Shown: piece by piece, positions 14,614-55,376 of the stretch | Layout of the letters: every line of letters begins with the position of its first letter | Position numbering within the stretch: position 1 is the stretch's first letter | Assembly: GCA_021158055.1 (NCBI GenBank) | Contig: JAGGVJ010000045.1 | Span: 1-55,376 of the forward strand | Direction of reading: 5' to 3' | Length of the DNA: 55,376 nucleotides | Source: Candidatus Iainarchaeum sp. | Lineage (GTDB): Archaea; Iainarchaeota; Iainarchaeia; JAGGVJ01 | Program-made: the position numbers and the translations under genes | Notes under the pieces: generated by a model | The model's input: the letters and a program-made list of their open reading frames with translations, nothing else | What the model was told of the DNA's origin: nothing | Database searches by the model: none

Positions 14614-14630
14614 AAGGCAATAACATGAAC

Positions 14631-16427: not shown

Positions 16428-16449
16428 ACGCAACCAACAAGACGGTAAC

Positions 16450-17910: not shown

Positions 17911-17951
17911 AAACGGCCATAAATAATTAACTGCAAAAACCAATTAATTAC

Positions 17952-19145: not shown

Positions 19146-19178
19146 ACACAAGACACACCCACACATCCGGAGATTCAG

Positions 19179-19544: not shown

Positions 19545-19591
19545 ACCATTGAATTTAATAAACAAAAATAATTAATGCTAAGGGGAAAGCA

Positions 19592-21148: not shown

Positions 21149-21229
21149 CCGTTGCATTTCAAACAATTTACCTCAACCGCCACAAAATCTTCACAAAAGT
21201 ATTTATGTAATCAAACAGTAATTTTTGAT

Positions 21230-23647: not shown

Positions 23648-23664
23648 GTTCAAATCAGATAAAT

Positions 23665-43730: not shown

Positions 43731-44107
43731 CAGCAAAACACCTCTGCTTCGTACGGGCAATACGTTTCTATGTTTTTTTGGTCAGAAGCAGCTAACGCCA
43801 CAGTAAACTTCACCGGTTTTCCTGTCTCGTCGCAAACCCTGTTTTTTTCACACACGCTCCAATCCAGGCTGATTTTCTGTGCATTGCTTTCATTGCCGTG
43901 CAGCTCAAGAAAACAACCCTTGCCGCACACCGCAATCGCATCCAGCCTGACTGCGGTTTCTTCAAATGCCAGGTAAAGTTCTTTTTCGCTTGCGTGTTGT
44001 TTTGCGTGGCTGAAGAACTGATTTTGGGACTCAAGCGCAAACCCTGTTGCAAGCAATACAATGACAATTGAAAAAAGGGCTTCAATTGTTATCTGGCCCT
44101 GCTTCAA
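43730..44107 (-). CDS. Pilin-like protein
   Basis: MKQG|QITIEALFSIVIVLL. Confidence 0.78.
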   Translation of the reverse strand: MKQGQITIEALFSIVIVLLATGFALESQNQFFSHAKQHASEKELYLAFEETAVRLDAIAVCGKGCFLELHGNESNAQKISLDWSVCEKNRVCDETGKPVKFTVALAASDQKNIETYCPYEAEVFC

Positions 44108-44811
44108 AGAACCAACTCCTCAATCAACTGCAGCGCGGTTTTTTTCACAACCAGGGTGTAGCCTGTTGGAAAAATCACGGTTTTTGTGAGAGTTGAATTG
44201 CCTGACTTTGCAGTGATTGTCGCTCCAAGAACAAGCCCCTTGTGCTCTGCCAAAACGAACTCTTGCGCAACAGGGTTTGAAATCTTTTTTTCTTCACCCA
44301 ATTCAAGGATTTTTAAAGCAAGCTCTTTGTTATCTACAAAAGCCAAAAGATAACTTTTCAGGGAATGGTTTCTTACAGCAATTATTTTCTCAATGTCACT
44401 TTTTTTAATCGGCTGTTTTTGAAGCGCAGTTGTGTTTTCGTAACTTTCAGGGTTTAATCCAGATGAAAAATAACCGGCACCCGTTTGTTTTTTCACCCAC
44501 AAATCGACTTCAACTGCCCCAGAATACTTTTTTTCAAGTTCTTGTTCCAGGCAAAGTATTTTTTCAGCCAGAGCAATTCGTTCCAAACCAGGCTCTGTTA
44601 AAAGCTGGTGTGAAAGAACGGAATAAACAAGAGATTCAAAGGAATGCAAGATGTCTTTTTTTACCTGTTTTGCTTTCATTTCCAAAAAAATAGCCTGATC
44701 TGCCTCAACAAGCCTTGAGTGCATGACTGCGTTTGACGCGATTAAAACAAGCAACCCTGCAACGATTACAGTCACTACAATAAAAGAAGTTATCCCTTTT
44801 CTCAAATCCAT
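44104..44811 (-). CDS. Pilin-like protein
   Basis: MDLRKG|ITSFIVVTVIVAGLLVLI. Start moved to ATG 44811. Confidence 0.68.
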   Translation of the reverse strand: MDLRKGITSFIVVTVIVAGLLVLIASNAVMHSRLVEADQAIFLEMKAKQVKKDILHSFESLVYSVLSHQLLTEPGLERIALAEKILCLEQELEKKYSGAVEVDLWVKKQTGAGYFSSGLNPESYENTTALQKQPIKKSDIEKIIAVRNHSLKSYLLAFVDNKELALKILELGEEKKISNPVAQEFVLAEHKGLVLGATITAKSGNSTLTKTVIFPTGYTLVVKKTALQLIEELVL

Positions 44812-45220
44812 CCCCGCAAATAACTCACGGTTAAAACAAGTAATATATTTTTCGATTGCGGCTGCAAAAAGCAAAGTGATTATTGGCGTGATTAGCGATT
44901 ATGGGTAGTGCTTAGTGTTTTTTGATGGTGCTTAACAGCAGGGAGTGCCTTTTCAATCGCTGTCAAAACATACAATCATAGAATATATCCTGTTTTGAAG
45001 CTGTTTTGCTGAATTTCAAAGGTTTTAACAAAAAATACTTTTATTTTCAGATAACTTTAATAAAGCCCTTTTTCATAAATTATAATTACTAAGATGCAAT
45101 CCAATCAAACCAATCAATTTGGTCAAACCTGAGTATCTTACATTTTTTTTAATTAACACACATCTTTTATGATTTTTTATTAATACTCTTATTTTTTAAT
45201 CCGCAGATTAACTGGTAGAT

Positions 45221-46123
45221 TTGATGACTGACAAACAAGAAGACAACACTGATTTATTAACCGATATCAAAGGCGAAAGAGACAAACTAAACGAAAAGGT
45301 AAAGTCTCTTGCTTCAAACAGAAAGGAAATTCGGGAAAAGTTCAACAAAATACTTGACATTGCACGCGAAGCAAAAATCGAAAGAGACCTTGAAAACACT
45401 CATGTAAGCAGTTTCAAGGCAGAGCGCGAGGAAATAAGAAAAAAACTTGACGCGTCACAGGCAATATTAAACGAGCTTGAAAAAACCCACCGCGAACTTG
45501 CAGGCGACTCACCGGTTTCTTACGCAAACCTGAAAAAACGCATGAACGCCATTGACTGGAAAATCCAGACCGAGCTTGTGGGTCGGGAAAAAGAACGCTC
45601 TCTTGTAGAAGAAGTCACGAGGATCCAAAAACAGCTTGACGAACTCAAAGACGTCAAAGACGTTGAAGAAAAACTTTTCAAGGCGAAAAACGAGTTCAGT
45701 ACAAATCTTAAAGAATTCAAGGTGAAAAAAGCCGCCGTGATGAAACACGCTGCAAGAAGCGAAAAATGCCACCAGAAAATGCTTGAAGCGTTTAAAAAAG
45801 CAGATGAGTTGCGCAAACAACTTGACGAGTCAGACCCGCAGTTTGAAGAACTCAAGCAAACCGCAAACGAAAAACACGAGGAGTTTGTAGGCAAACTCAA
45901 AAAAATAGAGGAAAAAGACAAAGCCGTCAAACAAGAGACACAAAAGAAAATCAGTGAAAAACGCGCAAAAGTAACAAAAGAAAAACAAGAACGTGCAGAA
46001 GACATTTTCGAGGCGTTGAAGTCAGGGCAAAAAATTGATTTGGAAGACATTCTTATCCTGCAGAAATTCGGGCTTGACAATCCAAAAGCTGATAAGAAAA
46101 AAGTTGTTGAAAGCAAAAAATAA
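45221..46123 (+). CDS. Archaeal coiled-coil protein (COG1340-like)
   Basis: Continuous heptad pattern with ERDKLNEKV, IDWKIQT..L...ER.LVE.V and C-terminal AEDIFE.LKSG.KI.LED. Confidence 0.7.
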   Translation: MMTDKQEDNTDLLTDIKGERDKLNEKVKSLASNRKEIREKFNKILDIAREAKIERDLENTHVSSFKAEREEIRKKLDASQAILNELEKTHRELAGDSPVSYANLKKRMNAIDWKIQTELVGREKERSLVEEVTRIQKQLDELKDVKDVEEKLFKAKNEFSTNLKEFKVKKAAVMKHAARSEKCHQKMLEAFKKADELRKQLDESDPQFEELKQTANEKHEEFVGKLKKIEEKDKAVKQETQKKISEKRAKVTKEKQERAEDIFEALKSGQKIDLEDILILQKFGLDNPKADKKKVVESKK

Positions 46124-46235
46124 GAGCATGGAACAAATCCTGAAAAGTTCAAAAGGGATCATTTGCCACCCCCTCTTAAACTTTGAAATTTGTCTGATGC
46201 GAAATTTTAAAAATTCTCCTTACTAACTTATACAC

Positions 46236-47138
46236 ATGAAACGAATTGACGTAAAAACAGGTTACACCTGCAACAACAATTGCCTTTTCTGTGCTGTTGC
46301 CGGTCACAAGCATGTAGAAGATCTTTCAACCCTCAAAATAAAAGAAAAGATAACGCATGCAAAAAACAGCAAAGCTGACATACTGCTACTGACCGGGGGA
46401 GAGCCGACCATCCGGCACGATATCTTTGAATTGATAGAATTTGCTTCGCTGGCGAAATTCAATGATATAGCCATAGAATCAAACGGCAGAATGTTCAGTT
46501 ACGACTGGTTTGCAGACAAAGCAATGTCCTGTGGAGCCTACACCTTTTTAATATCTTTTCATGCACCAAACCCCCTGTTAGGCGATTATCTTGCAAACGC
46601 AAAGGGGAGCTACAATCAAACACTTAACGGTCTGAAAAACCTGACTGACCTCGGAGTAAAAATATGCGTAAACTCCGTCATCGTAAAACCGAACTACAAA
46701 CTACTTGAGCAAACCGCTGAAATATTAATCAATTTAAACATAAGCAAAATTCATTTCCCTTTCGTCGACCCCACAGGAAATGCTTTTAAATACCGTGAAG
46801 AAATCGTCCCGCGGCTCTCGGAAATTGCCCCGTACCTGCACAAGGCGTTTGACTTATGCAAAGAACGCGGGGTAAAGGCAACCACTGAAAAAATTCCTTT
46901 TTGTTATCTTGCAGGTTATGAGGAATCTATTGGGGAACAAAACATGCCTGAAACTGAAATATGGGCTCCTGATTATACCACGCCTGATTTTAACCGGTCC
47001 AGAACCACAGAAGGAAAATCAAAGGGCCCGCAATGCACATCATGCGCCTTTTTTCATAAGTGCGAGGGAGTCATGAATAATTATTCAAACCTTGTCGGTT
47101 ACGGCGAACTAAAACCAGTCAATAAAAACAATCAATAA
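46236..47138 (+). CDS. Radical SAM protein, HxsC-like #1
   Basis: CNNNCLFC, TGGEPTI, SNGRMF, IPFC, and C-terminal CxxC-x5-CEG..Y...G..EL.P. Confidence 0.88.
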   Translation: MKRIDVKTGYTCNNNCLFCAVAGHKHVEDLSTLKIKEKITHAKNSKADILLLTGGEPTIRHDIFELIEFASLAKFNDIAIESNGRMFSYDWFADKAMSCGAYTFLISFHAPNPLLGDYLANAKGSYNQTLNGLKNLTDLGVKICVNSVIVKPNYKLLEQTAEILINLNISKIHFPFVDPTGNAFKYREEIVPRLSEIAPYLHKAFDLCKERGVKATTEKIPFCYLAGYEESIGEQNMPETEIWAPDYTTPDFNRSRTTEGKSKGPQCTSCAFFHKCEGVMNNYSNLVGYGELKPVNKNNQ

Positions 47139-47194
47139 ACTTTGCGGGAAAAATCTTATGCAAATCTCAGATACAACATTACAAAGATTACAAA

Positions 47195-48052
47195 CTACAA
47201 AGGGTTCAACTCTTCTGCCCCGACAAATTTTTTATAGCTTCTCCAGATTCCCGAGCAATCAGAAAAATATTTGCATTGATTGCATTCCTCTTTGAAAAAC
47301 AACCTTTTCCTTTCTGTAGTGACTCCTTCTGCGTATCCCCTGAACTTCTCTGAAAGCACGCATTTTGGAAAATGATACAAGATAAAATCCAGCTCATTTT
47401 CCTTTAATACCGAACACGCTTTCTCTAAAAAGGGAACAACTTCTGAATATCTTACAATCAACTGTTTTTTGTTCAATGCAGCCGATCCCACGATATTAAA
47501 ATAAAGAAAAACAACATTGGACACACTCGGCATGTTCAAGGAAATAAATTTCGCTATTCTGGGCAACGCCTCATAATTAAGATTATGCACAACTACCCTG
47601 ATCTCAACTTCCACCCCCAACCTTAACAGGTTTTGAATCCCTTCAATGGTCTGGATAAAACTCCCTTTCGCTTGAGTGATCTTTTCAAAAAGTTCCTCTT
47701 CCCCGGCATGTAAGGGCACTGCCACACTCTTTAAACCCAAATCTGTCATTTTTTTTGAAAAATCAGCGTAACAGAACATTCTTGCATTGGTGAGCAGTCT
47801 CTTCTTGGCTTTCGGAAACCTTTTTTCAAGGCAGCTCATTATATCAAATATGTCAGATCTTATTGTCGGTTCACCTCCCCCTGTGACGCTGATCTCTGAC
47901 ACGTTTTCATCAAGCGAGTTTATCATTTGTTTAATGTCCTCTGTTGAAGGCCCTTCTTTAATTTCACACTGCGTCTTTGAATAACCCAACCTCACAATCG
48001 GACACATGACACAATTATTATTACATGAAAAACAAATATTAAGATCAATCAT
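47195..48052 (-). CDS. hxsC: His-Xaa-Ser system radical SAM maturase HxsC-like (closest to canonical HxsC)
   Basis: CNNNCVMC, GGEPTI, LLTNARMF, VPLHA, GSF.QT..GI.NL...VEIRVVVH..NY..L, YHFPKC, CxxC-x5-CSG. Confidence 0.75.
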   Translation of the reverse strand: MIDLNICFSCNNNCVMCPIVRLGYSKTQCEIKEGPSTEDIKQMINSLDENVSEISVTGGGEPTIRSDIFDIMSCLEKRFPKAKKRLLTNARMFCYADFSKKMTDLGLKSVAVPLHAGEEELFEKITQAKGSFIQTIEGIQNLLRLGVEVEIRVVVHNLNYEALPRIAKFISLNMPSVSNVVFLYFNIVGSAALNKKQLIVRYSEVVPFLEKACSVLKENELDFILYHFPKCVLSEKFRGYAEGVTTERKRLFFKEECNQCKYFSDCSGIWRSYKKFVGAEELNPL

Positions 48053-48166
48053 TTTATCATCCGCAAAGCATATCTATCATCTTACAAATATAATCTTTGT
48101 TCATTTCACACATTTTATGTTTTATCCTCCTGATGTTATATTTTTAGTGCTGAAAACAGCAAAAAA

Positions 48167-49306
48167 TCAAGCAAAAAAATTAACAAGCAAATACGTCAAA
48201 AAATTTCCTTTGAAAAAATAAGTCAAAAGAACCCCCACAAAAAGCACCGGTGCAAAAGATATCGTTTCCTGAACTTTTATCCTGTCTGAATCAAGCAAAC
48301 CATTCTCCAGCCTGTAAAGCATCTCGCGAATATCCCATTCAGCTAAACCACCTGCTCTTCGCAAAAAAAGCACATTGTGATACCTTCGGAAGTCATCTGG
48401 AGATGAATCAAAAAGTATTTCCTTACCTTTTCCAGACATTGATTTTTCAAGAATCACTTTTTTGTAATGGTGGCGGCCTTTTTTGTTATCAATATCTTTT
48501 ATTCTCTCAAATGTTTCAACAGGCATCATTCCCGGCGCAAGATCAATTATTCTTTTTTCAATAGTAAAATTCCTTTTTGTAAGAGAAATAAGAATTAAAT
48601 AACCAAAAACGAACAATACAAATTTTTCAAAAAAACCTATCCAAAAAGAATAAGAAAGCATAACAGAACCTGCAAAAACAATTCTGATAATCACAAAAAT
48701 TGCCATCACAACATCTGTTTTCGAAGCAAACAATTTCTTTATTTTCGGAAAGATAATTATCATGACCGCCAGATTCAAAAAAGGATCAGATGGCATCCCA
48801 ATAAACAAAATAAACTGATTAAATACCCAGTAAAACCCCAGTAAATAAAGAACTTTTGAAACTATCCTTTCAAACGAAAAAATGTTTTTTACCTCCTGAG
48901 CCAATGTTTCCATCCTGAAAGAACGCACATTAAAAATTGTCAACGCGAAAAAAGCCAGCAAAAAACTGTTTATGAATATGGCAAACGAAGGAAAAAAAGA
49001 TATTAATTTGAAGTCATAAATACTGGTCGGAATAAGCAACGCATATGCTGTCATCAACTTGGCATCACCGGCAGGCCAAAAACCAACATACCACAATCCA
49101 AAGCCAAGAATAAACATGATCATTACATTTAGCAGGATATCAAATAAAAGCACGGGTTTTTGAAAAACCAAAAAAGAAGTAATAATTACGCCCGCTAAAA
49201 GAGCAATCATTATACATTTGTTGCTTACTTTTTTGTATTTTATATCATAAAAAGAAGTTACTAACCCAAAAATAAACACAAAGAAAAAATCAATCATAAC
49301 CAACAA
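48167..49306 (-). CDS. A24 family prepilin-type peptidase inside the radical SAM cluster
   Basis: SFYDIK and WPAGDAKL catalytic Asp pair. Many TM helices. C-terminal DLAPGM..GL..FAPVLFVG, similar to the 14887 paralog. Confidence 0.85.
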   Translation of the reverse strand: MLVMIDFFFVFIFGLVTSFYDIKYKKVSNKCIMIALLAGVIITSFLVFQKPVLLFDILLNVMIMFILGFGLWYVGFWPAGDAKLMTAYALLIPTSIYDFKLISFFPSFAIFINSFLLAFFALTIFNVRSFRMETLAQEVKNIFSFERIVSKVLYLLGFYWVFNQFILFIGMPSDPFLNLAVMIIIFPKIKKLFASKTDVVMAIFVIIRIVFAGSVMLSYSFWIGFFEKFVLFVFGYLILISLTKRNFTIEKRIIDLAPGMMPVETFERIKDIDNKKGRHHYKKVILEKSMSGKGKEILFDSSPDDFRRYHNVLFLRRAGGLAEWDIREMLYRLENGLLDSDRIKVQETISFAPVLFVGVLLTYFFKGNFLTYLLVNFFA

Positions 49307-49408
49307 TAGTTATTTTAAGTTTAAATCAATTTAGCTAAAATCAAACAAGTATTCATCCATAGCTGTATTTTGGAAAAGATGCTAATTTATCCCAAACAAA
49401 CTACTGCG

Positions 49409-49675
49409 CTACTCGCTTTCAGAATAAAGCCCTTCACACAACCTATTAATCTCCCTTACCTCTTCTTTAACTTCTTTTATATCCCTCTTCAATGAAGATA
49501 TGCCATCGTCCTGATTTTGATCAAGAACCAATACGCGAACAGCAGTCCTTTCTGAAATCTCAAGAGCCATTGAAGATTTATCCATAATTGAAGTCAGATA
49601 ATATATTGTCACAGCCTGTGCCAAAATAATTAAAACAAGAAGCACTGGGACCAATTTATTAGTATTACTGCTCAT
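49409..49675 (-). CDS. Small membrane-anchored coiled-coil protein
   Basis: One TM helix then a coiled coil. SD GGAGGGAGG before ATG 49675. Confidence 0.65.
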   Translation of the reverse strand: MSSNTNKLVPVLLVLIILAQAVTIYYLTSIMDKSSMALEISERTAVRVLVLDQNQDDGISSLKRDIKEVKEEVREINRLCEGLYSESE

Positions 49676-49851
49676 ATACCTCCCTCCCGAATACAATCAA
49701 AAATTATACTTGAATCTATTATTTACTAAAAATCTTTTATAAGTATATTAATATTACTTTATATTAATAGGTATGCTGTCAAAAAACATATCGTCAGCGG
49801 GTCGAAGTATCTCTGCACCTGCAATTGATAAAAAACAAAAGTGAATCCAGG

Positions 49852-50697
49852 ATGATAAAACGTTTCAACATCAATACCGGCACAATGTGCAACAATAACT
49901 GTCGTTTTTGTGTGATTGATCACAACGAAAAACCACGGAACACTTGTTTTGAAGATATAGAAAAAGAACTTGAAGTATTCAGAGAAAAAGGCATAAGAGA
50001 AATAGCCTTCGTTGGCGGCGAGGTTACAATTCGCAGAGATATCATTGAAATGATTTCGCTTGCGAAAAAACTTGGTTACGCTAAAATCCGGATTGTGAGC
50101 AATGGGAGGATGTATTGCTATCCTGATTTTTTGGAAAAAATCATCAAAGCAGGAGTGAACGGATTTACTGTCTCAATACACGCTCACAATGCGTCACTTG
50201 GGGATTACCTGTCAAGATCCAAAGGCAGTTTCACGCAGACAACAACAGGAATAAAAAACCTACGCAAAATGGGTTTCATTCCAAACATAAATATTGTGAT
50301 AAACAAATTAAACTATAAGCACCTTCCGGAAATCATCTCACTTTTAAATAGCTTTGACATAAACAACATACGCATGTCAATCATAAACCCTGAAGGGAAT
50401 GCAATGACTAATTTCAATGAAGTAGTGCCTACGCTGACTGAAATTACACCATATATAAAAAAATCAGCAAAAATCTGTGACAAAAACAACATCAGCCTAA
50501 CCATAAACTCCCTTCCTTTTTGCATACTGCCGGAGTGCAACAGATACAAAGACGAACCTTACAATATCTTAAACAAAATAAACATAAAACCCGAAAAATG
50601 CAATTCATGCATATATTTTGAGGTTTGTGACGGACTTCGGAAGGAATACGCTAAAAAATTCGGGTTTAAAGAAATAATGCCAATAAAAAATAACTAG
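49852..50697 (+). CDS. Radical SAM protein, HxsC-like #3
   Basis: CNNNCRFC, VGGEVTI, SNGRMY, LPFC, CNSCIYFEVCDG..Y...G. Alternative TTG start at 49825. Confidence 0.88.
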   Translation: MIKRFNINTGTMCNNNCRFCVIDHNEKPRNTCFEDIEKELEVFREKGIREIAFVGGEVTIRRDIIEMISLAKKLGYAKIRIVSNGRMYCYPDFLEKIIKAGVNGFTVSIHAHNASLGDYLSRSKGSFTQTTTGIKNLRKMGFIPNINIVINKLNYKHLPEIISLLNSFDINNIRMSIINPEGNAMTNFNEVVPTLTEITPYIKKSAKICDKNNISLTINSLPFCILPECNRYKDEPYNILNKINIKPEKCNSCIYFEVCDGLRKEYAKKFGFKEIMPIKNN

Positions 50698-50786
50698 TCA
50701 GTCTCAGCATGGATTGCAAAAAAATTAAAGCACGAATATTAAAAGGAAAAATTTCAATATTTTGTCATTTCAATCAATTTAATGCT

Positions 50787-51731
50787 TTATTGAATCGGCC
50801 TCAGTTCATCAGTGCCATATATATCCGCATAACTTTTCCAAACCCCCAGACAATGAGCATCCTCCACGCACAACTTACACGAAGGAGATTTTACTTTATT
50901 CCTCATCACACTAACAACAGAAGAATGAAGCGGACTTTTTGGATCAGAAGAAAGTATCTTATATTCATCACAATTTTTCAAATATTTATAAAAATAACAC
51001 AATGGCACACCGCAAAAAGGATTGGAAAAACCAATGCCTTTCTTTTCACATTTTTCTGCGGCTTGATCCAGATAACGTTCAACTTCTGATATCTTCGGGA
51101 CAATCCACTTGTTTTTTTGAGGACTGCCGTAAGGTTGTACAAAAGAAAATACAATCCTGCCAATTGAACCTGAAAATTCTTTGTCGATAAATTCCACAAA
51201 CTCGGGAAGAATCCTGTAATTAACAGAGTTTACAACAATATTCAAATCAACCGGAACACCCTCATGAATAAGGTTGTGAATTCCCGCAATAGTTTTTTTG
51301 AATGTGCCGGGGCTTCTTGTCAAAAAATCAGACATCTCCTCCAAATGCGAATGCAATGATATAAACGCACTTGCCAAGCCAGCTGAGACAAGGGCTTTCG
51401 TATAACTTTTATATGCAAATCTTATCGCGTTTGATTGAACGACAATCTTAACACCTTTTGAGTGGGCAAAAGAAATCAAATCAAATAAATCATCCCTTAT
51501 TGTCGGTTCGCCTCCTGTAAAGGTTATTTGGGTGCAACCTGTGCTAAGAAAACTTTTCAGCTCATTTAAAAGAAACTGCGGTTTCGGATTCTCAAATTGA
51601 GAATTACAAAATTCAACTGTTTTTTCTTGGCTAATCTGCATAATCTCTGATGTCTTATTTCCACCTTTGACATTGCAAAAAAAACAATTCTGGTTACAAG
51701 CCAACCCCGTCCTGAAAATATTATCCACCAT
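50787..51731 (-). CDS. Radical SAM protein, HxsC-like #4
   Basis: CNQNCFFC, TGGEPTI, QSNA, GVPLC, CKLCVEDAHCLGVW..Y...GTDELRP. Confidence 0.88.
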   Translation of the reverse strand: MVDNIFRTGLACNQNCFFCNVKGGNKTSEIMQISQEKTVEFCNSQFENPKPQFLLNELKSFLSTGCTQITFTGGEPTIRDDLFDLISFAHSKGVKIVVQSNAIRFAYKSYTKALVSAGLASAFISLHSHLEEMSDFLTRSPGTFKKTIAGIHNLIHEGVPVDLNIVVNSVNYRILPEFVEFIDKEFSGSIGRIVFSFVQPYGSPQKNKWIVPKISEVERYLDQAAEKCEKKGIGFSNPFCGVPLCYFYKYLKNCDEYKILSSDPKSPLHSSVVSVMRNKVKSPSCKLCVEDAHCLGVWKSYADIYGTDELRPIQ

Positions 51732-51732
51732 A

Positions 51733-52641
51733 TTACCCTATTGGCTGAAACTCTTCCCACCCTCTCTTTTGAGGATACTCACACCAAGGACCCTCACACT
51801 GACTGTCATAAATGCATTTGCTGCACAACGGTCCCTTTGATTTTCCCATATTTCTTCGCACTTCCGTAAAATTTCTGATATTGGAACTTACACTGCGTAT
51901 CTCTGTTTCAGGTATGAATCTCTCTGAGCAAAAAGATTCATAACCTTTCATAAAACAAAACGGGTATGCTTCAGCCATCACAGAAACACCCGCGTTTATA
52001 CCAATATCAAGAGCACGGTGAACAAACGGTTCTACTTTGCTTTTTAGCGGAACAATGCTATCAAAATATTTGAATGCATTTCCCTGAGGATGCACAAAAG
52101 CAAACTGAAACTGATCAACCCCAAGATTAACAAGCAACTTGGCTATATCAGGCAAAAATTCATAGTTTGGTTTTGTGATTACAGTATTTGAAGCGACATA
52201 CAACCCCAAAGATTTTGCGTTCACAATCCCTTGAGAGGTCTGCTTAAAGCTGCCTGGTGAACGGGTCAGGTAATCATGAAGTTGGGAATTGTGCCCATGA
52301 AGAGCAGGGGATATTTCGGTTGCCCCGCAATCCACAAGTTTCCTTACAAATGATTTATAATAAAGCATTCTTCCGTTTGTCTGAATCTGAATTATTTCAT
52401 AATCAAGAGCCCTTGCAAAAGAGACTATTTCAAATACATCAGGGCGAATAGTGACCTCGCCCCCTGTAAAAACCACTTCTCCAGCACCGTTTTCTTTTCC
52501 TACTGCAAGGTCTTTTTTTATCTCTTCAGTTGTTTTATCAAGGCTTTTTCCCGAATTTCGGTTTTCTGCGATAACGCAAAAACGACAGTTATTGTTACAT
52601 TTAAATCCAACTTTTAAGTCAAGCCGGTCCTTTTTTTTCAT
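51733..52641 (-). CDS. Radical SAM protein, HxsC-like #5
   Basis: RLDLKVGFKCNNNCRFC, TGGEVTI, QTNGRM, YPFC, CSKCIYDSQCEG. Start moved to ATG 52641. Confidence 0.88.
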   Translation of the reverse strand: MKKKDRLDLKVGFKCNNNCRFCVIAENRNSGKSLDKTTEEIKKDLAVGKENGAGEVVFTGGEVTIRPDVFEIVSFARALDYEIIQIQTNGRMLYYKSFVRKLVDCGATEISPALHGHNSQLHDYLTRSPGSFKQTSQGIVNAKSLGLYVASNTVITKPNYEFLPDIAKLLVNLGVDQFQFAFVHPQGNAFKYFDSIVPLKSKVEPFVHRALDIGINAGVSVMAEAYPFCFMKGYESFCSERFIPETEIRSVSSNIRNFTEVRRNMGKSKGPLCSKCIYDSQCEGPWCEYPQKRGWEEFQPIG

Positions 52642-52771
52642 AAAGTTATTTAAACATTCAAAACATATTAACTTTGTGTAAAATAACGATGTCAAGTTGT
52701 TATTTTTAAATTTTGAGATTGCCGCCGTCATTATATATTTAAAAATAAGAACCTTAAAAACAGATGATCTT

Positions 52772-53113
52772 ATGCCTGAAGAAAGTACTTTTCAAATGCT
52801 TGATAATGTAAAGATTGACAGCAAAAAAATGAACGCACACATAACTGTAAATCCGAAAATACACCCACCATCAACAATATACTCTTCATGTTACACCCTC
52901 TTTGATAAAAATTATGTTTTCATAACTGAATCTGACGATAAATTCAAAATAGAAATAACCCCAAAAAAAGATACTTCAATAAAAGATTTCGGACTCACCT
53001 GCGGCAATTTCAACAACCTGCTCATTACACAAACAAGCAACCTGTTTTTCATATCCAAAAACAAGAAACTAAATAACATCATCCTAAAAGGGGTTGAAAA
53101 AGCACATATTTAA
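52772..53113 (+). CDS. hxsD: HxsD-like protein
   Basis: ITVNPKIH...IYSSCY.L.D..YV......I.I.PK......GNFNNLL resembles the HxsD pattern as recalled. Context supports the call. Start at ATG 52772. Confidence 0.65.
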   Translation: MPEESTFQMLDNVKIDSKKMNAHITVNPKIHPPSTIYSSCYTLFDKNYVFITESDDKFKIEITPKKDTSIKDFGLTCGNFNNLLITQTSNLFFISKNKKLNNIILKGVEKAHI

Positions 53114-53181
53114 CCAACTAATACACTAAATCATATTCATCTCTTGGATGAATATTACCCATCAACAGGAAAAGGGATTAA

Positions 53182-53448
53182 ATGAAAGAAATTGAAATTG
53201 ATGAAAACAATAAAAAAGCAACAATCTCGTTCACAAAAAAAATATATTTCATTGAAGCAGTTATAAAAACAATTAACAATTTTCGAGAATTCTGCGACGT
53301 AACACTTGCAGAAACAGATGATTCAATCCAGATAACAATTGAACCAAAATCCAACACCCTGCCCCTAACTGAAATCGCAAATGAATTTTGCAACCACGTT
53401 TTAAATGAATCAAAGAATACATATGATGACAGTCAAAAGGTGATTTAA
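53182..53448 (+). CDS. Second HxsD-like protein
   Basis: ISFTKKIY..EAV......F......I.I.PK......EFCNHVL, paralogous to the previous ORF. Confidence 0.65.
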   Translation: MKEIEIDENNKKATISFTKKIYFIEAVIKTINNFREFCDVTLAETDDSIQITIEPKSNTLPLTEIANEFCNHVLNESKNTYDDSQKVI

Positions 53449-54894
53449 CTGACTTTTAGTTTTTTTGACACTCCAATCAACCTTAAATATATCATCAACG
53501 ATTACACGGCAAAAAAAATAGGTGACAACCAATATTTCGTGTCAGTAAAACACGGCCCGTGGGCAATACTTGATTCAGAAGATTTTGATCTTTTGAAAAC
53601 CGGCCGGTTAAACGAAAAAAAAGAACTCCTTGATTTTTTACACGAAAAACACATTGTCTTAAGTGAAAACAACATCAATAAAGCAGCACATATCCTGAGT
53701 GAAAGATGCAGTCATATTACTAACGGCGTAACTCTTCACATTGTTGTCCCGACACTGAGATGCACCAACAAATGCGTCTACTGCCATGCCAAATCAAAAG
53801 ACGAGAACGCAAAGGGATATGATATGGATGAGGACACTGCAAAACAAACTGTTGACTTTATATTTGACACTCCTTCAAACAATCTCACTATTGAATTCCA
53901 GGGAGGAGAACCGCTTCTGAACTTTGATATTGTGAGATATATCGTGGACTACGCAAAACTGCTTGGAAAGGAAAAAAACAAAGAAATCCAGTTTGCTCTT
54001 GTCTCAAACTTTGCAAAAATGGACAAAGACATAGCTGACTTTATCATCTCAAACAGAATCGGACTTAACACATCTCTTGACGGCCCGAAAGAAGTCCATG
54101 ACAAAAACAGAAAATATAAGGGCAGGGGCACATATGAAACAGTGGTTTATTGGATTGATTACCTGCTCAAGGAACGAAACTACAAGTCCCTTTCAGCTTT
54201 ACCGACGCCTTCAAGACATTCGCTTGATTATCCAAAAGAAATAGTTGATGAATACATAGAAAGAGGCTTCGACAGGATTTTCATACGCTACCTGAACCGC
54301 GCCGGATTTGCCGAACAGGACTGGGATAAAATTGGATACACTGCCGATGAATTTTTGGATTTTTGGCTAAAGACATTGGATTATATAATTGAATTAAACA
54401 AGCAAAAAGTCGAAATCAGAGAAAGGTGGACTGAAACAATACTTTCAAAACTGATAAATCCAATACACGGCGGATACACCTGCTTGGGATCCCCTTGTGG
54501 AGCGACACTCATCCAGTTAGCTTACGAATCAAACGGAGACATTTACTCTTGCGACGAATCAAGATCTGTTGAATTATTCAAGATAGGGAACGTAAAAGAA
54601 CAAAGATACAGTGATGTAATCACATCAGAACAGGTAAAAACAATCATTTCGCTTTCTTCAGGACTAATGAACAGTTGCGATTCGTGTGTTTGGCATCCTT
54701 ACTGCGGAGCGTGCCTTGTCAGTTTATACAATTCAACCGGAAGCTTCAATTCCAACCCGCGGCAGGACGTGGGGTGCTTAATTAAAAGCGGCTCTATCGA
54801 ACAGATAATAAAAAAACTTGCACAAAAAGATGAAGACACCGACATATTACTTGGGTGGCTGGAAAAGAAAAGATTAATATACAAAATAAAGTAA
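53449..54894 (+). CDS. hxsB: His-Xaa-Ser system radical SAM/SPASM maturase HxsB
   Basis: LHIVVPTLRCTNKCVYC, IEFQGGEPL, TSLDGP..HD.NR, SPCGA...LAY...GDIYSCDE.R, CDSCVWHPYCG. Frame is open back to CTG 53449, preceded by SD AGGTGAT. Track start is GTG 53539. Confidence 0.88.
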   Translation: MTFSFFDTPINLKYIINDYTAKKIGDNQYFVSVKHGPWAILDSEDFDLLKTGRLNEKKELLDFLHEKHIVLSENNINKAAHILSERCSHITNGVTLHIVVPTLRCTNKCVYCHAKSKDENAKGYDMDEDTAKQTVDFIFDTPSNNLTIEFQGGEPLLNFDIVRYIVDYAKLLGKEKNKEIQFALVSNFAKMDKDIADFIISNRIGLNTSLDGPKEVHDKNRKYKGRGTYETVVYWIDYLLKERNYKSLSALPTPSRHSLDYPKEIVDEYIERGFDRIFIRYLNRAGFAEQDWDKIGYTADEFLDFWLKTLDYIIELNKQKVEIRERWTETILSKLINPIHGGYTCLGSPCGATLIQLAYESNGDIYSCDESRSVELFKIGNVKEQRYSDVITSEQVKTIISLSSGLMNSCDSCVWHPYCGACLVSLYNSTGSFNSNPRQDVGCLIKSGSIEQIIKKLAQKDEDTDILLGWLEKKRLIYKIK

Positions 54895-54926
54895 ATGTGT
54901 TTACAACTGATAAAAGATAGATATTC

Positions 54927-55376
54927 ATGAAAAAACTGCAACTCCCAAAAATAAAAAAAACAATTGAATCATTCCTGTGTGAAGAAACTGCAAAACTCTC
55001 AAAAGAACAAGTGGTTACAACAGGACTCAAACTGTCAATAATAGCTGGAGCTGCAACACTTATTACTTCAGACAGCCACGCATGCAACTGTGATTGCGTA
55101 AGTGTATGTCACTGCAAACACGCGAGTCATGACAATTATGACGGCCCGCATGAACCTGACGCAGTAAGTGGTGAAGGCATGGAAATGGATTACAACTCGG
55201 CTTGTGCCTCAAAACTGTCTGCATTCCACACCCATTACGATCCAGAAAATTATAGCTGTTCTTGCAAAAACGATTGCGGTTGCAACTCATATCACAATTC
55301 CCACGGAAGCCACTCAAGCCACGGAAGCCACGGAAGCCACGGAAGCCACGGAAGCCACTCAAGCCACAGCAACAGT
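54927..55376 (+). CDS. hxsA: His-Xaa-Ser repeat precursor peptide (HxsA-like), truncated by window end, not in ORF track
   Basis: 150 open codons: MKKLQLPKIKKTIESFLCEETAKLSKEQVVTTGLKLSIIAGAATLITSDSHACNCDCVSVCHCKHASHDN...SCSCKNDCGCNSYHNSHGSHSSHGSHGSHGSHGSHSSHSNS. Lies directly downstream of hxsB. Confidence 0.88.
   Translation, partial: MKKLQLPKIKKTIESFLCEETAKLSKEQVVTTGLKLSIIAGAATLITSDSHACNCDCVSVCHCKHASHDNYDGPHEPDAVSGEGMEMDYNSACASKLSAFHTHYDPENYSCSCKNDCGCNSYHNSHGSHSSHGSHGSHGSHGSHSSHSNS
55293..55373 (+). repeat. 9-bp coding tandem repeat (CACGGAAGC consensus) encoding His-Xaa-Ser
   Basis: HNS HGS HSS HGS HGS HGS HGS HSS followed by HSN. Confidence 0.95.

What the first reader, a model, noticed from the sequence alone, without database searches (positions are those of the whole stretch)
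46236..55376. Expanded archaeal His-Xaa-Ser RiPP-like cluster: six radical SAM enzymes, two HxsD-like proteins, a dedicated prepilin peptidase and a precursor
Seen: five ~300-aa radical SAM paralogs (CNxNCxxC plus PxC and a CxxC-x5-CxG tail), one SPASM-type radical SAM, two paralogous small proteins, an A24 peptidase, a small membrane protein and an HxS-repeat ORF, all contiguous. Established: the TIGRFAM His-Xaa-Ser system is HxsA precursor plus HxsB, HxsC and HxsD, normally with two radical SAM enzymes. Inference: this is a much more elaborate version in a probably reduced-genome archaeon. It may install several modifications on an exported Cys/His-rich peptide that could bind metal or be displayed on the surface. 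I cannot state the chemistry, and the cluster continues past the window.
Basis: partly seen in the sequence, partly recalled or inferred. Interest (0 to 1): 0.92.

Follow-up and report, generated by a model that had tools for sequence, protein, structure and literature searches.

The report
Expanded archaeal His-Xaa-Ser maturation cluster
A small-genome archaeon carries at least six, probably nine, radical SAM enzymes and its own membrane protease for modifying and exporting a histidine-serine repeat protein, a relative of a bacterial system recently shown to block phage DNA entry.

Summary
Window 46236-55376 holds HxsB (over NCBIfam's cut-off), five paralogous HxsC/HxsC4-like radical SAM genes (all under cut-off), two HxsD-like genes, an A24 aspartyl peptidase gene and a His-Xaa-Ser repeat precursor.

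Three results change the picture.
- The layout is not a one-off. An A24-like gene, two HxsD-like genes, HxsB and a precursor with the leader motif FLxxEEGKISK recur in DPANN archaea, CPR bacteria and Elusimicrobia, with 0-6 HxsC-like genes nearby. The A24-like gene lies within 10 kb of HxsB in 30 of 39 archaeal-labelled loci.
- The A24 gene belongs to an Hxs-linked subfamily. It is distinct from the housekeeping prepilin peptidase that sits in a pilus locus of the same contig.
- The contig very probably runs on into contig C5. That completes the precursor at 150 aa and adds three more radical SAM genes.

Canonical HXS is a published anti-phage system (PMC13128918). I found no paper on this archaeal variant.

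I read it as a new variant of a known kind. The chemistry and the biological role are inferred, not shown.

The parts
46236..47138 (+). rSAM-A, a 300-aa HxsC4-like radical SAM protein
   Evidence: NCBIfam gives HxsC4 122.2 bits and HxsC 106.1 bits, both under cut-off. Pfam Radical_SAM 73.1 bits. CNNNCLFC at residue 12 and a CxxCx5CxG tail. It has no well-supported clade in the tree.
47195..48052 (-). rSAM-B, 285 aa, the paralog closest to canonical HxsC
   Evidence: TIGR03977 HxsC 194.1 bits (cut-off 267.9), matching model positions 34-291 of 292. BLAST to canonical HxsC proteins gives 104-133 bits, against 36-86 for the other four paralogs. It sits in a 14-row clade with SH-aLRT 99, together with Elusimicrobia-, Omnitrophota- and Woesearchaeota-labelled rows.
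48167..49306 (-). Hxs-linked A24-family aspartyl intramembrane peptidase, 379 aa
   Evidence: PF01478 33 bits (cut-off 26.5). D21 and D81 (in AGDAKL) are invariant in 26 Hxs-linked homologs. A model built without it scores it 122.9 bits over the full length, against 30.6 for the housekeeping paralog. Homologs lie beside HxsB in 30 of 39 archaeal-labelled loci. The AlphaFold2 model has pLDDT 83.9 and is helical with a small beta-containing domain at about residues 248-346.
49409..49696 (-). 95-aa ORF with an N-terminal hydrophobic segment; membership uncertain
   Evidence: No Pfam or NCBIfam family at E<=0.01; only E~0.04-0.05 hits at a loose threshold. No homolog in the 80 related loci or elsewhere in the genome.
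49825..50697 (+). rSAM-C, a 290-aa HxsC4-like radical SAM protein
   Evidence: HxsC4 148.9 bits and HxsC 112 bits, both under cut-off. It is 77% identical to a second copy on contig C29 (19490-20455), and the pair has SH-aLRT 100.
50787..51731 (-). rSAM-D, a 314-aa HxsC-like radical SAM protein
   Evidence: HxsC4 108.8 bits and HxsC 90 bits. It sits in a 14-row clade with SH-aLRT 98, together with the genome's own C5 and C29 copies and Elusimicrobia-labelled rows.
51733..52731 (-). rSAM-E, an HxsC4-like radical SAM protein (ORF of 332 aa; the likely start is 30 codons in)
   Evidence: HxsC4 181.8 bits, full length 9-335 of 335, under the cut-off of 500. Orthologs of 48-57% identity lie beside HxsB in four related genomes. 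It sits in a 19-row clade with SH-aLRT 99.
52772..53113 (+). HxsD-long-like protein (113 aa from the second ATG; the ORF opens at 52697)
   Evidence: TIGR03976 HxsD 29 bits (cut-off 50). It aligns at 23-29% identity with the 'long' HxsD-like proteins that precede HxsB elsewhere, but lacks their acidic DPxGIxxPW tail.
53182..53448 (+). HxsD-short protein (HxsD_rel), 88 aa
   Evidence: NF038315 56.4 bits, over the cut-off of 41. It aligns with the short HxsD-like proteins that lie directly upstream of HxsB in 32 of 39 archaeal-labelled and 30 of 41 bacterial-labelled loci. The AlphaFold2 model has pLDDT 89.7 and a beta-beta-alpha-beta-beta-alpha fold.
53539..54894 (+). HxsB, a 451-aa radical SAM/SPASM maturase
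   Evidence: TIGR03978 426.5 bits, over the cut-off of 370. Pfam Radical_SAM and SPASM. It is the only match over the cut-off in the genome.
54927..55376 (+). HxsA3/A4-like precursor: a conserved leader, a hydrophobic segment, a Cys/His-rich middle and an HxS repeat tail
   Evidence: HxsA4 38.2 bits and HxsA3 31.8 bits, both under cut-off. It is 30-45% identical to 16 of 17 precursors that lie beside HxsB elsewhere (23% to the last), and shares their leader. The frame is open at the contig end. Contig C5 shares the last 11 bases and then gives two stop codons in frame.
55301..55367 (+). 9-base tandem repeat that encodes the (H-G/S-S) units
   Evidence: Tandem Repeats Finder: period 9, 7.4 copies, 89% matches. 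Summed contig depth over 55277-55376 is 39.8 against 17.3 in run X1 and 22.5 against 12.6 in X2, so the copy number may be collapsed in the assembly.

Best explanation
This is a genuine but non-canonical His-Xaa-Ser (Hxs) maturation system in a small-genome, DPANN-type archaeon.

Shown:
- The gene identities.
- The conserved neighbourhood across phyla.
- The separate Hxs-linked subfamily of A24 peptidase.
- The shared precursor leader.
- The probable continuation of the cluster into contig C5.

Inferred mechanism:
1. The 150-aa precursor is made in the cytoplasm. Its conserved N-terminal leader (about 35 residues, motif FLxxEE.K.SK) serves as the handle for the maturation machinery. The two HxsD-like proteins act as adaptors or chaperones. 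In E. coli, HxsD forms a complex with HxsC (PMC13128918).
2. HxsB (SPASM type), the HxsC-like enzyme rSAM-B and four further HxsC4-like paralogs act on the precursor. So probably do the three radical SAM proteins on C5. Each uses a CxxxCxxC cluster plus a C-terminal four-Cys auxiliary site to put radical-based modifications on the Cys/His-rich middle and the HxS repeats.
3. The hydrophobic segment behind the leader enters the membrane. The dedicated A24-type intramembrane aspartyl protease then removes the leader at the cytoplasmic face, as prepilin peptidases do with class III signal peptides. This supplies the N-terminal processing step for which no protease is known in the canonical system.
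4. The modified His/Ser-repeat tail ends up outside the cell, either anchored or released.

Biological role (most speculative): an envelope-level barrier against incoming viral DNA, by analogy with E. coli HXS.

My odds:
- Hxs-type maturation system: about 0.9.
- The A24 enzyme processes the precursor: about 0.5.
- Antiviral role: about 0.3.
The confidence figure of 0.6 is for the identity of the system plus the biogenesis scheme as a whole.
For: Gene identities:
- HxsB is over its cut-off and HxsD_rel is over its cut-off. All five paralogs score best to HxsC or HxsC4.
- The precursor matches the HxsA3 and HxsA4 models and shares the leader with precursors beside HxsB in other genomes.

Linkage in related genomes:
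- In four related genomes of another family of the same class, an A24-like gene (24-30% identity over the full length) and 2-4 HxsC-like genes flank HxsB.
- Among the 80 best of 573 HxsB loci, an A24-like gene lies within the fetched 10-kb flanks in 30 of 39 archaeal-labelled and 11 of 41 bacterial-labelled loci.
- In 22 of those 30 archaeal loci it lies 512-919 bases upstream of HxsB, a gap filled by the two HxsD-like genes.

The A24 subfamily:
- Both catalytic Asp are invariant in 26 Hxs-linked A24-like proteins. Of the 26, 23 match PF01478 and 19 match Arc_PepC.
- In a leave-one-out test the cluster's A24 scores 122.9 bits. The pilus-locus paralog scores 30.6, and the two other paralogs are not found.
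- In 41 genomes of the class, scores of 341-391 bits to the A24-like model occur in exactly the five genomes whose HxsB passes the cut-off. All other genomes score 111 bits or less.

A24 and leader type:
- A24-like genes accompany only leader-type precursors. 17 of 30 loci that match the leader pattern have one.
- Three of 22 loci in the 'other' class also have one, but by inspection these three are two leader variants and one fragment.
- None of the 15 loci that, on my reading of the printed sequences, have an ordinary signal-peptide precursor has one.

The HxsC-like paralogs:
- They fall into old, cross-phylum clades with SH-aLRT 98-100 for rB, rD, rE and rC. They are specialised enzymes, not recent copies.

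Published biology:
- Canonical HxsB, HxsC and HxsD are needed for N-terminal processing, a +8 Da modification in an HxS repeat and export of HxsA, which blocks phage DNA entry (PMC13128918, sections 8, 9 and 11 read).
Against: - None of the five paralogs reaches the HxsC cut-off (best 194.1 of 267.9) or the HxsC4 cut-off (best 181.8 of 500). The precursor is under both HxsA cut-offs.
- All five paralogs lack the 95-117-residue N-terminal extension of canonical HxsC.
- The leader has no canonical class III motif (K/R, then G/A/S, then a hydrophobic stretch). Many precursors carry an AxA-like site after the hydrophobic segment, which a signal peptidase could cut instead (my reading).
- 13 of 30 leader-type loci show no A24-like gene within 10 kb.
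- The closest relatives, labelled Iainarchaeum, have no detectable HxsD-like genes.
- The precursor has no peptidoglycan-binding domain (no Pfam family) and archaea have no murein. The E. coli mode of action therefore cannot be copied directly.
- The A5 model contains the five high-scoring proteins themselves, so the size of that gap is partly by construction.
- The 80 loci were chosen for likeness to this HxsB, so the frequencies describe this branch only.
- There are no expression or protein data.
Confidence: 0.6

Rival explanations
1. The biosynthesis is the same, but the product is a metal-binding surface or secreted peptide (a Ni, Zn, Cu or Fe chelator, or a redox-active peptide) and not an antiviral barrier. 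The visible part of the precursor has 13 Cys and many His.
For: The precursor's middle is unusually rich in Cys and His (CNCDC, CHCKH, CSCKNDCGCN) and is followed by His-Ser repeats. The window encodes no known defence gene beside the cluster (padloc gave only generic viperin-like radical SAM matches).
Against: The only tested member of the system family acts against phage, and its HxS repeats bind DNA (PMC13128918). Most related precursors lack the Cys-rich middle. No metal transporter or metalloregulator was seen among the conserved neighbours.
Confidence: 0.25
2. The A24 peptidase has nothing to do with the Hxs precursor. It serves pilins, for instance the pilin-like genes at 42616-44874, and lies in the cluster by accident.
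For: Pilin-like ORFs with a class III type N-terminus lie 3-5 kb upstream (43730-44107). The precursor lacks a canonical class III cleavage motif. The genome has four A24 genes.
Against: Its orthologs lie beside HxsB in 30 of 39 archaeal-labelled loci and in 6 of 23 loci of the viral collection. The upstream pilin-like genes have no homolog in any of the 80 loci. A separate A24 gene (14887-15984) sits inside a full type IV pilus locus on the same contig. The high-scoring subfamily occurs only in the five genomes with HxsB.
Confidence: 0.1
3. The many HxsC-like enzymes do not all act on this one precursor. Some serve other substrates (other Cys-rich proteins, further precursors on unassembled DNA) or act on non-peptide substrates, so the cluster is several pathways side by side.
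For: The genome has eight single-domain and two fused HxsC-like genes on three contigs. Only one HxS precursor was found. On C29 an HxsC-like gene lies beside an HxsD-long gene and a 359-aa Cys-rich protein, without HxsB. 16 of 39 archaeal-labelled HxsB loci show no HxsC-like gene of 100 bits or more within 10 kb. The next-best families include MoaA and NirJ-like cofactor enzymes.
Against: The paralog clades recur together beside HxsB and precursors in distant phyla, for instance in the Elusimicrobia-labelled loci L101, L103 and L104. Many loci are short contigs, so a count of zero is a lower bound.
Confidence: 0.2
4. The precursor is a pilin-like or fibre-forming subunit. After cleavage by the A24 enzyme, its hydrophobic N-terminus lets it assemble into a filament or a trimeric fibre whose shaft is the period-3 His/Ser repeat.
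For: It has a charged leader followed by a hydrophobic segment, and an A24 enzyme is linked to it. Many repeats are Gly-Ser-His, with Gly at every third residue. One related precursor (L076) ends in a Peptidase_S74 intramolecular chaperone domain, which is typical of trimeric phage fibres (46.8 bits).
Against: No pilus assembly ATPase or platform gene is conserved in the loci. Many repeats are Ser-His-Ser without Gly. The hydrophobic segment is rich in Gly, Ala and Ser and is often followed by an AxA-like site, more like a secretion signal (my reading).
Confidence: 0.1
5. The cluster does not belong to this archaeon. It is a chimeric join or a mis-binned piece of another organism.
For: G+C is 0.369 against 0.421 for the genome, among the lowest 9-kb windows (mean 0.424, sd 0.018). 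Loci labelled Sulfurovum, Cytophagia or Aminicenantes carry archaeal-type versions, which shows that binning of such loci is unreliable.
Against: The cluster is contiguous with GatD/GatE, a RadA-like gene and CDC48 on one 55-kb contig. Public contigs of two runs cover 52000-55345 without a difference, and the onward piece has the same depth (17.3 and 16.9). Relatives of the same class carry the same system. Contamination is estimated at 0.05%. Low G+C fits acquisition by transfer rather than an artefact.
Confidence: 0.04

Closest known systems
Canonical His-Xaa-Ser / HXS system (HxsD-HxsB-HxsC-HxsA), defined by TIGR03976-TIGR03978 and shown to be an anti-phage system in E. coli (PMC13128918)
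   Same: HxsB is an equivalog by score. There is an HxsC-like enzyme with the same two-cluster Cys pattern, an HxsD-related small protein, and a precursor with tandem HxS units encoded next to HxsB. The precursor needs N-terminal processing and export.
   Different: - It has five (probably eight) HxsC-like enzymes instead of one. All lack canonical HxsC's N-terminal extension and fall under the cut-off.
- It has two HxsD-like proteins.
- It has a dedicated A24 intramembrane protease.
- The precursor has a long conserved leader plus a hydrophobic segment, not a plain signal peptide plus a peptidoglycan-binding domain.
- The host is archaeal, and the gene order differs.
- The paper reports 99.7% of its systems in Pseudomonadota and more than 99.8% with four genes, and has no occurrence of the word 'archaea'.
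NCBIfam variant models HxsA3 (NF038309), HxsA4 (NF038313), HxsC4 (NF038332) and HxsD_rel (NF038315)
   Same: These models show that curators already know of non-canonical Hxs components. The window's proteins score best to them, and D2 passes HxsD_rel. A bacterial locus with the order A24-like, HxsC-like, HxsB has a precursor that passes HxsA3 at 90.5 bits against 65.
   Different: - The window's precursor and all five paralogs are under the cut-offs.
- None of nine HxsC-like proteins tested from other loci passes either.
- No NCBIfam model matches any of seven Hxs-linked A24-like proteins tested.
- I could not read the models' own descriptions.
Archaeal prepilin / preflagellin peptidases of family A24 (FlaK, PibD, EppA; names recalled)
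   Same: It matches Pfam Peptidase_A24. Both catalytic Asp motifs are kept. Most homologs have the archaeal C-terminal domain Arc_PepC. It is a polytopic helical membrane protein.
   Different: - It forms a separate subfamily linked to HxsB, not to pilus genes.
- The likely substrate lacks the class III motif.
- A profile search found no solved structure.
Radical SAM/SPASM peptide maturases of RiPP pathways (SCIFF, PapB, CcpM; leader-dependent)
   Same: After HxsB itself, HxsB and the 667-aa C5 protein score next best to these families. There is a leader-plus-core logic, and several tailoring enzymes sit in one cluster.
   Different: - No RRE-type domain was identified.
- The small partner proteins have a beta-beta-alpha-beta-beta-alpha fold with only weak likeness to ACT-like domains and type III secretion chaperones.
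- The product is a 150-aa exported protein rather than a short peptide.
Intramembrane leader removal in RiPP pathways: the M50 metalloprotease EpeP of the epipeptide pathway (PMC10885120, one passage seen)
   Same: A membrane-embedded protease encoded in the cluster is thought to cleave and help export a radical-SAM-modified peptide.
   Different: It is a different protease class (aspartyl A24 against metallo M50). The 2023 review of RiPP leader proteases has no occurrence of 'prepilin', 'A24', 'aspartic' or 'aspartyl'.

Membership tests
His-Xaa-Ser system (NCBIfam/TIGRFAM definition) | HxsB: a radical SAM/SPASM protein over the TIGR03978 cut-off | tested here: met
   426.5 bits against a cut-off of 370; 435.4 bits in the six-frame search, the only match over the cut-off in the genome.
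His-Xaa-Ser system (NCBIfam/TIGRFAM definition) | HxsC: a radical SAM protein over the TIGR03977 cut-off | tested here: not met
   The best of the five is rSAM-B at 194.1 bits against 267.9; the others score 90-112. Of 13 matches in the genome, none is over the cut-off. Positive control: a canonical HxsC (L116) scores 393.4.
His-Xaa-Ser system (NCBIfam/TIGRFAM definition) | HxsD: a small protein over the TIGR03976 cut-off, or over the HxsD_rel cut-off | tested here: inconclusive
   TIGR03976 gives 29 and 26.8 bits against a cut-off of 50, so this is not met. NF038315 HxsD_rel gives 56.4 bits against 41 for 53182-53448, so this is met.
His-Xaa-Ser system (NCBIfam/TIGRFAM definition) | HxsA: a precursor with tandem His-Xaa-Ser units encoded in the cluster | tested here: inconclusive
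   Eight contiguous HxS units and a 9-base repeat of 7.4 copies lie directly after HxsB. However, HxsA4 at 38.2 of 55 and HxsA3 at 31.8 of 65 are both under cut-off.
HXS anti-phage system (PMC13128918) | [quoted passage not shown] | tested here: not met
   The order here is D-long, D-short, HxsB, HxsA, with the HxsC-like genes upstream on both strands. The precursor has no Pfam domain. It carries a leader plus a hydrophobic segment instead.
HXS anti-phage system (PMC13128918) | Protection against virus infection by blocking DNA entry | not testable with these tools
   This needs an experiment. The organism is known only from metagenomes.
Peptidase family A24 (prepilin peptidases) | A match to PF01478 over the gathering score | tested here: met
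   33 bits against 26.5. 23 of 26 Hxs-linked homologs also match.
Peptidase family A24 (prepilin peptidases) | Two catalytic aspartates, the second in a GxGD-like motif (feature recalled) | tested here: met
   D21 and D81 (in AGDAKL) are invariant in the alignment of 26 proteins.
Peptidase family A24 (prepilin peptidases) | A substrate with a class III signal peptide: a short charged leader, G/A/S at -1, then a hydrophobic helix (feature recalled) | tested here: inconclusive
   The presumed substrate has a charged leader of about 35 residues and a hydrophobic segment, but no canonical cleavage motif. The best-kept leader residues are F16 and E20. Cleavage itself was not tested.
RiPP pathway with leader-dependent radical SAM maturases | A conserved leader, a variable core, tailoring enzymes and a protease in one cluster | tested here: met
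   The leader is conserved across 18 precursors while the middle and the repeat number vary. The enzymes and a protease are clustered. Whether the 150-aa product counts as a RiPP or as a modified protein is a matter of definition.

The most novel reading that the evidence does not exclude
An A24-family intramembrane aspartyl protease has been recruited as the leader peptidase of a protein matured by radical SAM enzymes. I found this protease class in no account of RiPP or protein maturation.

Together with two HxsD-like chaperones, HxsB and a changing set of HxsC-like enzymes, it would define a second, mainly DPANN/CPR/Elusimicrobia type of Hxs system. The heavily cross-linked, period-3 His/Ser repeat product would sit on the cell surface, possibly as a fibre, and stop viral genomes from entering cells that have no murein wall.
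Probability: 0.3. Interest if true: 0.85.

Novelty: new variant of a known kind. Interest (0 to 1): 0.72.

Why it matters
- **Resource commitment.** DPANN archaea have about 1-Mb genomes and little biosynthesis. This one nonetheless spends ten HxsC-like genes, HxsB, a further SPASM enzyme and a private membrane protease on one kind of repeat protein. That argues for a function under strong selection at the cell surface, where these symbionts meet hosts and viruses.
- **The missing protease.** The canonical system was linked to blocking phage DNA entry only in 2026, and the protease for its N-terminal processing is unknown (PMC13128918). The variant described here names a candidate protease, so that step can be tested.
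- **Material for the chemistry.** Five to eight diverged HxsC-like enzymes sit beside one substrate. That is a natural set for working out the still unsolved chemistry of HxS modification.
- **Annotation gap.** The current family models miss the HxsC-like and A24-like components of a system found in many candidate phyla.

Tried and rejected
- **Foldseek of the A24-like model against the PDB:** 0 matches at E<=0.001. The best hits were unrelated transporters with TM-scores of about 0.1.
- **Profile of 26 A24-like proteins against PDB sequences:** one chance hit at E 0.25. Membership in A24 therefore rests on Pfam and the motifs.
- **Foldseek of the HxsD-short model:** 0 matches at E<=0.001. The best hits were RNA polymerase I chains 4c2m_Z and 4c2m_K (E 4e-3 to 6e-3), ACT-like domains and the secretion chaperones ExsC and InvB (E 0.02-0.08). 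These are leads only.
- **Complex prediction (HxsD-long, HxsD-short, precursor residues 1-60):** the verdict was 'no answer', with a score of 0.07 against a mark of 0.32. It says nothing either way.
- **Promoter and terminator scan of 45000-55376:** 30 promoter-like sites against 28.3 expected, and 7 terminator-like sites against 8.5. It is uninformative, and the consensus is bacterial.
- **padloc:** only generic viperin-like radical SAM matches. The library dates from 2023.
- **Expression:** no RNA holder is listed for the stretch.
- **Contig tail:** a first search for the tail in other contigs with 14-base words found nothing. The 11-base overlap with C5 was seen later.
- **95-aa ORF:** no homolog, so I do not count it as part of the system.
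- **Upstream genes:** the pilin-like genes and the DUF7121 gene have no homolog in the 80 loci and were rejected as parts.
- **Haft and Basu 2011 (PMC3133131):** not held. What I say of it is recalled, or taken from citations in PMC9062424 and PMC13128918.
- **Supplements:** closed. The supplementary tables of PMC13128918 (10,369 HxsA proteins and gene structures) may list rare variants that I could not see.
- **Literature searches behind 'not in print':**, and term look-ups in two papers. Only Creative Commons PMC papers and bioRxiv were searched.
- **Not done:** The search for homologous proteins, the search of protein representatives and the protein-atlas search were not used. The class-level name of the organism (probably Iainarchaeia) is an inference from the labels of the closest loci, not a test.

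Full report
**What is there**

The window is the whole of contig C28 of a 1.15-Mb, 45-contig genome, estimated 94.9% complete and 0.05% contaminated. The contig also carries GatD/GatE, a RadA-like recombinase, CDC48 and a type IV pilus locus with class III signal peptides, so the host is an archaeon. Genomes of the same class held in the collection are 0.4-1.3 Mb. The closest Hxs proteins come from MAGs labelled Candidatus Iainarchaeum and other DPANN groups.

From 46236 to the contig end the open frames are as follows:

| Coordinates (strand) | Gene | Size |
|---|---|---|
| 46236-47138 (+) | rSAM-A | 300 aa |
| 47195-48052 (-) | rSAM-B | 285 aa |
| 48167-49306 (-) | A24 peptidase | 379 aa |
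| 49409-49696 (-) | membrane ORF | 95 aa |
| 49825-50697 (+) | rSAM-C | 290 aa |
| 50787-51731 (-) | rSAM-D | 314 aa |
| 51733-52731 (-) | rSAM-E | 332 aa |
| 52697/52772-53113 (+) | small protein | 138/113 aa |
| 53182-53448 (+) | small protein | 88 aa |
| 53539-54894 (+) | SPASM enzyme | 451 aa |
| 54927-55376 (+) | HxS-repeat ORF, open at the contig end | 150 aa so far |

**Family scores**

- The SPASM enzyme is HxsB: TIGR03978 at 426.5 bits against a cut-off of 370.
- All five ~300-aa proteins score best to HxsC or HxsC4. rSAM-B gives 194.1 bits to HxsC. rSAM-E gives 181.8, rSAM-C 148.9, rSAM-A 122.2 and rSAM-D 108.8 bits to HxsC4.
- The next families (NirJ, MoaA, AhbD) score 63-86 bits. 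None of the five reaches a curated cut-off of 267.9 or 500.
- As a control, a canonical HxsC from a proviral contig scores 393.4 bits.
They lack the 95-117-residue N-terminal extension of canonical HxsC.
- rSAM-B is the closest to canonical HxsC: 104-133 BLAST bits against 36-86 for the others.
- The 88-aa protein passes HxsD_rel at 56.4 bits against 41. The other small protein gives 29 bits to HxsD against a cut-off of 50.
- The peptidase passes Pfam Peptidase_A24 at 33 bits against 26.5.
- The precursor matches HxsA4 (38.2 of 55) and HxsA3 (31.8 of 65). Its tail is a 9-base repeat of 7.4 copies.

**The layout recurs**

HxsB passes the cut-off in 5 of 41 genomes of the class, this one included. 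The other four belong to a different family of the class (4 of 4 genomes of that family). In all four, an A24-like gene with 24-30% identity over the full length, an rSAM-E ortholog (48-57% identity) and one to three more HxsC-like genes flank HxsB.

The 80 best were fetched with up to 10 kb on each side. By record title, 39 are archaeal: Aenigmatarchaeota, Woesearchaeota, Nanoarchaeota, Iainarchaeum, Micrarchaeia, Nanohaloarchaea and Altiarchaeales, plus some labelled Methanosarcinales. The other 41 are bacterial: Myxococcota, Elusimicrobia, CPR groups, Omnitrophota and others.

I built profile HMMs from the window's proteins and those of the four relatives. I scored all ORFs of 40 aa or more that my own routine called.

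| Feature | Archaeal-labelled loci (39) | Bacterial-labelled loci (41) |
|---|---|---|
| A24-like gene present | 30 (27 at >=100 bits) | 11 (3 at >=100 bits) |
| Two or more HxsC-like genes at >=100 bits | 14 | 19 |
| Three or more HxsC-like genes | 9 | 11 |
| Both HxsD-like genes present | 32 | 28 |

- The largest number of HxsC-like genes in one locus is 6.
- In 22 of the 30 archaeal loci the A24-like gene ends 512-919 bases before HxsB, and in 3 it abuts HxsB.
- That gap holds a 'long' HxsD-like gene (about 110-220 aa, often ending in an acidic DPxGIxxPW tail) and a 'short' one (about 60-95 aa).
- Many loci are short contigs, so these counts are lower bounds.
- The loci were chosen for likeness to this HxsB, so the counts describe this branch of the family only.

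The usual archaeal core order is therefore A24-like, HxsD-long, HxsD-short, HxsB, precursor. The window has the last four in that order. Its A24 gene lies 4.2 kb upstream, among the HxsC-like genes.

**The peptidase is a separate, Hxs-linked subfamily**

The genome has four A24 genes. One of them (14887-15984) lies inside a complete type IV pilus locus on the same contig. That locus has an ATPase at 9117-11018, two TadC-like genes and three pilins with class III N-termini.

- A model built from the four relatives' proteins alone scores the cluster's protein at 122.9 bits over the full length. It scores the pilus-locus paralog at 30.6 and misses the other two paralogs at E<=10.
- In an alignment of 26 Hxs-linked proteins, D21, N29, W77, D81, K83 and L84 are invariant. 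Both catalytic aspartates are therefore kept.
- Of the 26, 23 match PF01478 and 19 match the archaeal C-terminal domain PF06819.
- Searched in the 41 genomes of the class, this alignment scores 341-391 bits in exactly the five genomes whose HxsB passes the cut-off. It scores 111 bits or less in every other genome. The five proteins are rows of the alignment, so the size of the gap is partly by construction.
- In the viral and proviral collection, 23 loci encode HxsB relatives. Six of them have the order A24-like, HxsC-like, HxsB. Most of the others are canonical: HxsB, a 380-aa HxsC, then a short HxsA.

**The precursor family**

Precursors next to these HxsB genes share four parts:
- an N-terminal leader (consensus lPKiKKxIxsFLxxEEGKISK);
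- a Gly/Ala/Ser-rich hydrophobic segment of about 20 residues;
- a variable middle;
- tandem HxS units, often ending in an aromatic residue.

The window's precursor is 30-45% identical to 16 of the 17 aligned and 23% to the last. F16 is invariant and E20 nearly so. Its Cys-rich middle is unusual for the family.

A24-like genes go with this leader type:
- 17 of 30 loci that match my leader pattern have one.
- Of 22 loci with only other HxS ORFs, 3 have one. By inspection these three are a fragment and two leader variants.
- None of the 15 loci that, on my reading of the printed sequences, have a plain signal-peptide precursor has one.
- One bacterial leader-type precursor passes HxsA3 at 90.5 bits against 65.

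The reverse does not hold. 13 leader-type loci show no A24-like gene within 10 kb.

**The paralogs are old**

I built a tree of 98 complete HxsC-like proteins of 260-400 aa that score at least 100 bits. Fused, longer and cut ORFs were left out. The model was LG+G4 and the support measure was SH-aLRT.

- rSAM-B falls in a 14-row clade (support 99).
- rSAM-D falls in a 14-row clade (support 98), together with two further copies from this genome.
- rSAM-E falls in a 19-row clade (support 99).
- rSAM-C pairs with a 77%-identical copy on C29 (support 100).
- rSAM-A has no supported clade.
- The three multi-row clades (rB, rD, rE) mix archaeal- and bacterial-labelled rows, and several occur together in single loci of Elusimicrobia.

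The set therefore looks like a toolbox of distinct enzymes. None of nine such proteins from other loci passes the HxsC or HxsC4 cut-offs.

**The cluster goes on**

- The last 11 bases of C28 equal the first 11 bases of contig C5. This is the only 11-base end overlap among all contig-end pairs. The other overlaps are 127, 92-118 and 16-17 bases. About 0.002 such pairs are expected by chance (my estimate).
- Read on in the precursor's frame, C5 gives two stop codons at once. The precursor is then complete at 150 aa.
- In run X1 a public contig of 5,730 bases starts at window base 55329 and runs beyond the end. Its depth is 16.9, against 17.3 for the contig that covers 52000-55345.
- Depth over the repeat is about doubled, so repeat copies may be collapsed.
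- C5 has a G+C of 0.365 and encodes a 667-aa SPASM maturase (best match PapB-like, 109.6 bits), a 337-aa HxsC-like protein, a 764-aa protein with an N-terminal HxsC-like domain, and the start of a STAND/AAA-type ATPase.
- Homologs of the 667-aa and 764-aa proteins lie in other Hxs loci.
- The locus then holds nine radical SAM genes. The genome has ten HxsC-like genes in all.
- The cluster's G+C is 0.369 against 0.421 for the genome, about three standard deviations below the mean of 9-kb windows. This is compatible with acquisition by transfer.

**What is known**

The canonical four-gene system was defined in silico by Haft and Basu in 2011 (recalled; that paper is not held). In 2026 it was shown to protect E. 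coli by blocking phage DNA entry (PMC13128918). I read its abstract and sections 8-11. The paper reports that:
- HxsB, HxsC and HxsD are all needed for a non-canonical N-terminal cleavage of HxsA;
- they are also needed for a +8 Da change in one HxS unit and for periplasmic accumulation;
- HxsC binds HxsD;
- the protease is not identified;
- 99.7% of the systems counted lie in Pseudomonadota and more than 99.8% have four genes.

The words archaea, paralog, prepilin and peptidase do not occur in the main text. Four full-text searches found no paper on an archaeal or A24-linked variant. A 2023 review of RiPP leader proteases has no occurrence of the terms prepilin, A24, aspartic or aspartyl.

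**Reading**

The identity of the system and the conserved linkage are shown. The steps I give under the best explanation are inferred from the gene set, from the E. coli work and from what A24 enzymes do. Those steps are leader-guided modification by many radical SAM enzymes, help from two HxsD-like proteins, membrane insertion, leader removal by the A24 enzyme, and display of the repeat tail.

The weak points are:
- the missing class III motif;
- the AxA-like sites that a signal peptidase could use;
- the loci without an A24 gene;
- the absence of any expression or protein data.

The role is open. An antiviral barrier is favoured by analogy only. Metal binding remains a fair rival for this Cys- and His-rich member.

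Noticed in passing
window 9117-16872: A complete type IV pilus locus. It has a secretion ATPase (9117-11018), two TadC-like membrane proteins (11084-12208, 12232-13143), pilins with class III N-termini (13587-14129, 15966-16427, 16450-16872) and its own A24 prepilin peptidase (14887-15984).
   Followed up: partly
window 42616-44874, minus strand: Four ORFs without family, at least one (43730-44107) with a class III type N-terminus (MKQGQ then a hydrophobic stretch). They have no homolog in the 80 Hxs loci, so they are probably a separate pilin-like set that happens to lie next to the cluster.
   Followed up: partly
contig C5 of the same genome (L134:1-5923): It shares its first 11 bases with the last 11 of the window and very probably continues the cluster. 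It encodes a SPASM maturase (77-2080), an HxsC-like protein (2231-3244), a fused HxsC-like protein of 764 aa (3208-5502) and a STAND/AAA ATPase start (5483-5923).
   Followed up: yes
contig C29 of the same genome (L135; C29:11745-23787): A second, HxsB-less module. It has an HxsC-like gene (11745-12755), a canonical-looking HxsD-long gene with the acidic tail (17643-18086) and a 359-aa Cys-rich protein without family (18187-19266). It also has an HxsC-like gene 77% identical to rSAM-C (19490-20455), an 831-aa protein distantly like the fused HxsC-like proteins (20549-23044), and an ORF without a Pfam match (23041-23787) that looked ATPase-like by eye.
   Followed up: partly
L076:6850-7422 (MAG labelled Woesearchaeota): This HxS precursor carries a Peptidase_S74 intramolecular chaperone domain (46.8 bits) behind the repeats. 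That domain is typical of trimeric phage tail fibres. Many HxS units are Gly-Ser-His, with Gly at every third residue, which hints at a fibrous, period-3 structure.
   Followed up: no
window 52000-55376 in coded run X3 (cold seep metagenome): Short contigs 90-95% identical to HxsD-short, HxsB and the precursor. Most differences are transitions. There are two insertions of three bases each in the precursor (near 55104-55106 and 55165-55167), which keep the frame.
   Followed up: no
whole genome, contig ends: Many contig ends overlap by exactly 127 bases, others by 92-118 or 16-17. The start of C28 overlaps C30 by 110 bases. The assembly could therefore be scaffolded further from these overlaps.
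   Followed up: partly
contig C20 near base 4660, plus strand: A short HDSHDSHDS run in one frame is the only other HxS-like run in the genome. It was not examined and may be chance.
   Followed up: no
L111-L133 (IMG/VR contigs): 23 viral or proviral contigs carry HxsB relatives (26-37% identity). Most are canonical bacterial HxsB-HxsC-HxsA sets, which fits a mobile defence system. Six have an A24-like gene in front.
   Followed up: partly
L032, L033, L034 (labelled Sulfurovum, Aminicenantes, Cytophagia): These 'bacterial' loci carry archaeal-type A24-like genes (206-228 bits), and L033 and L034 also the archaeal core order. They may be mis-binned DPANN contigs or recent transfers.
   Followed up: no
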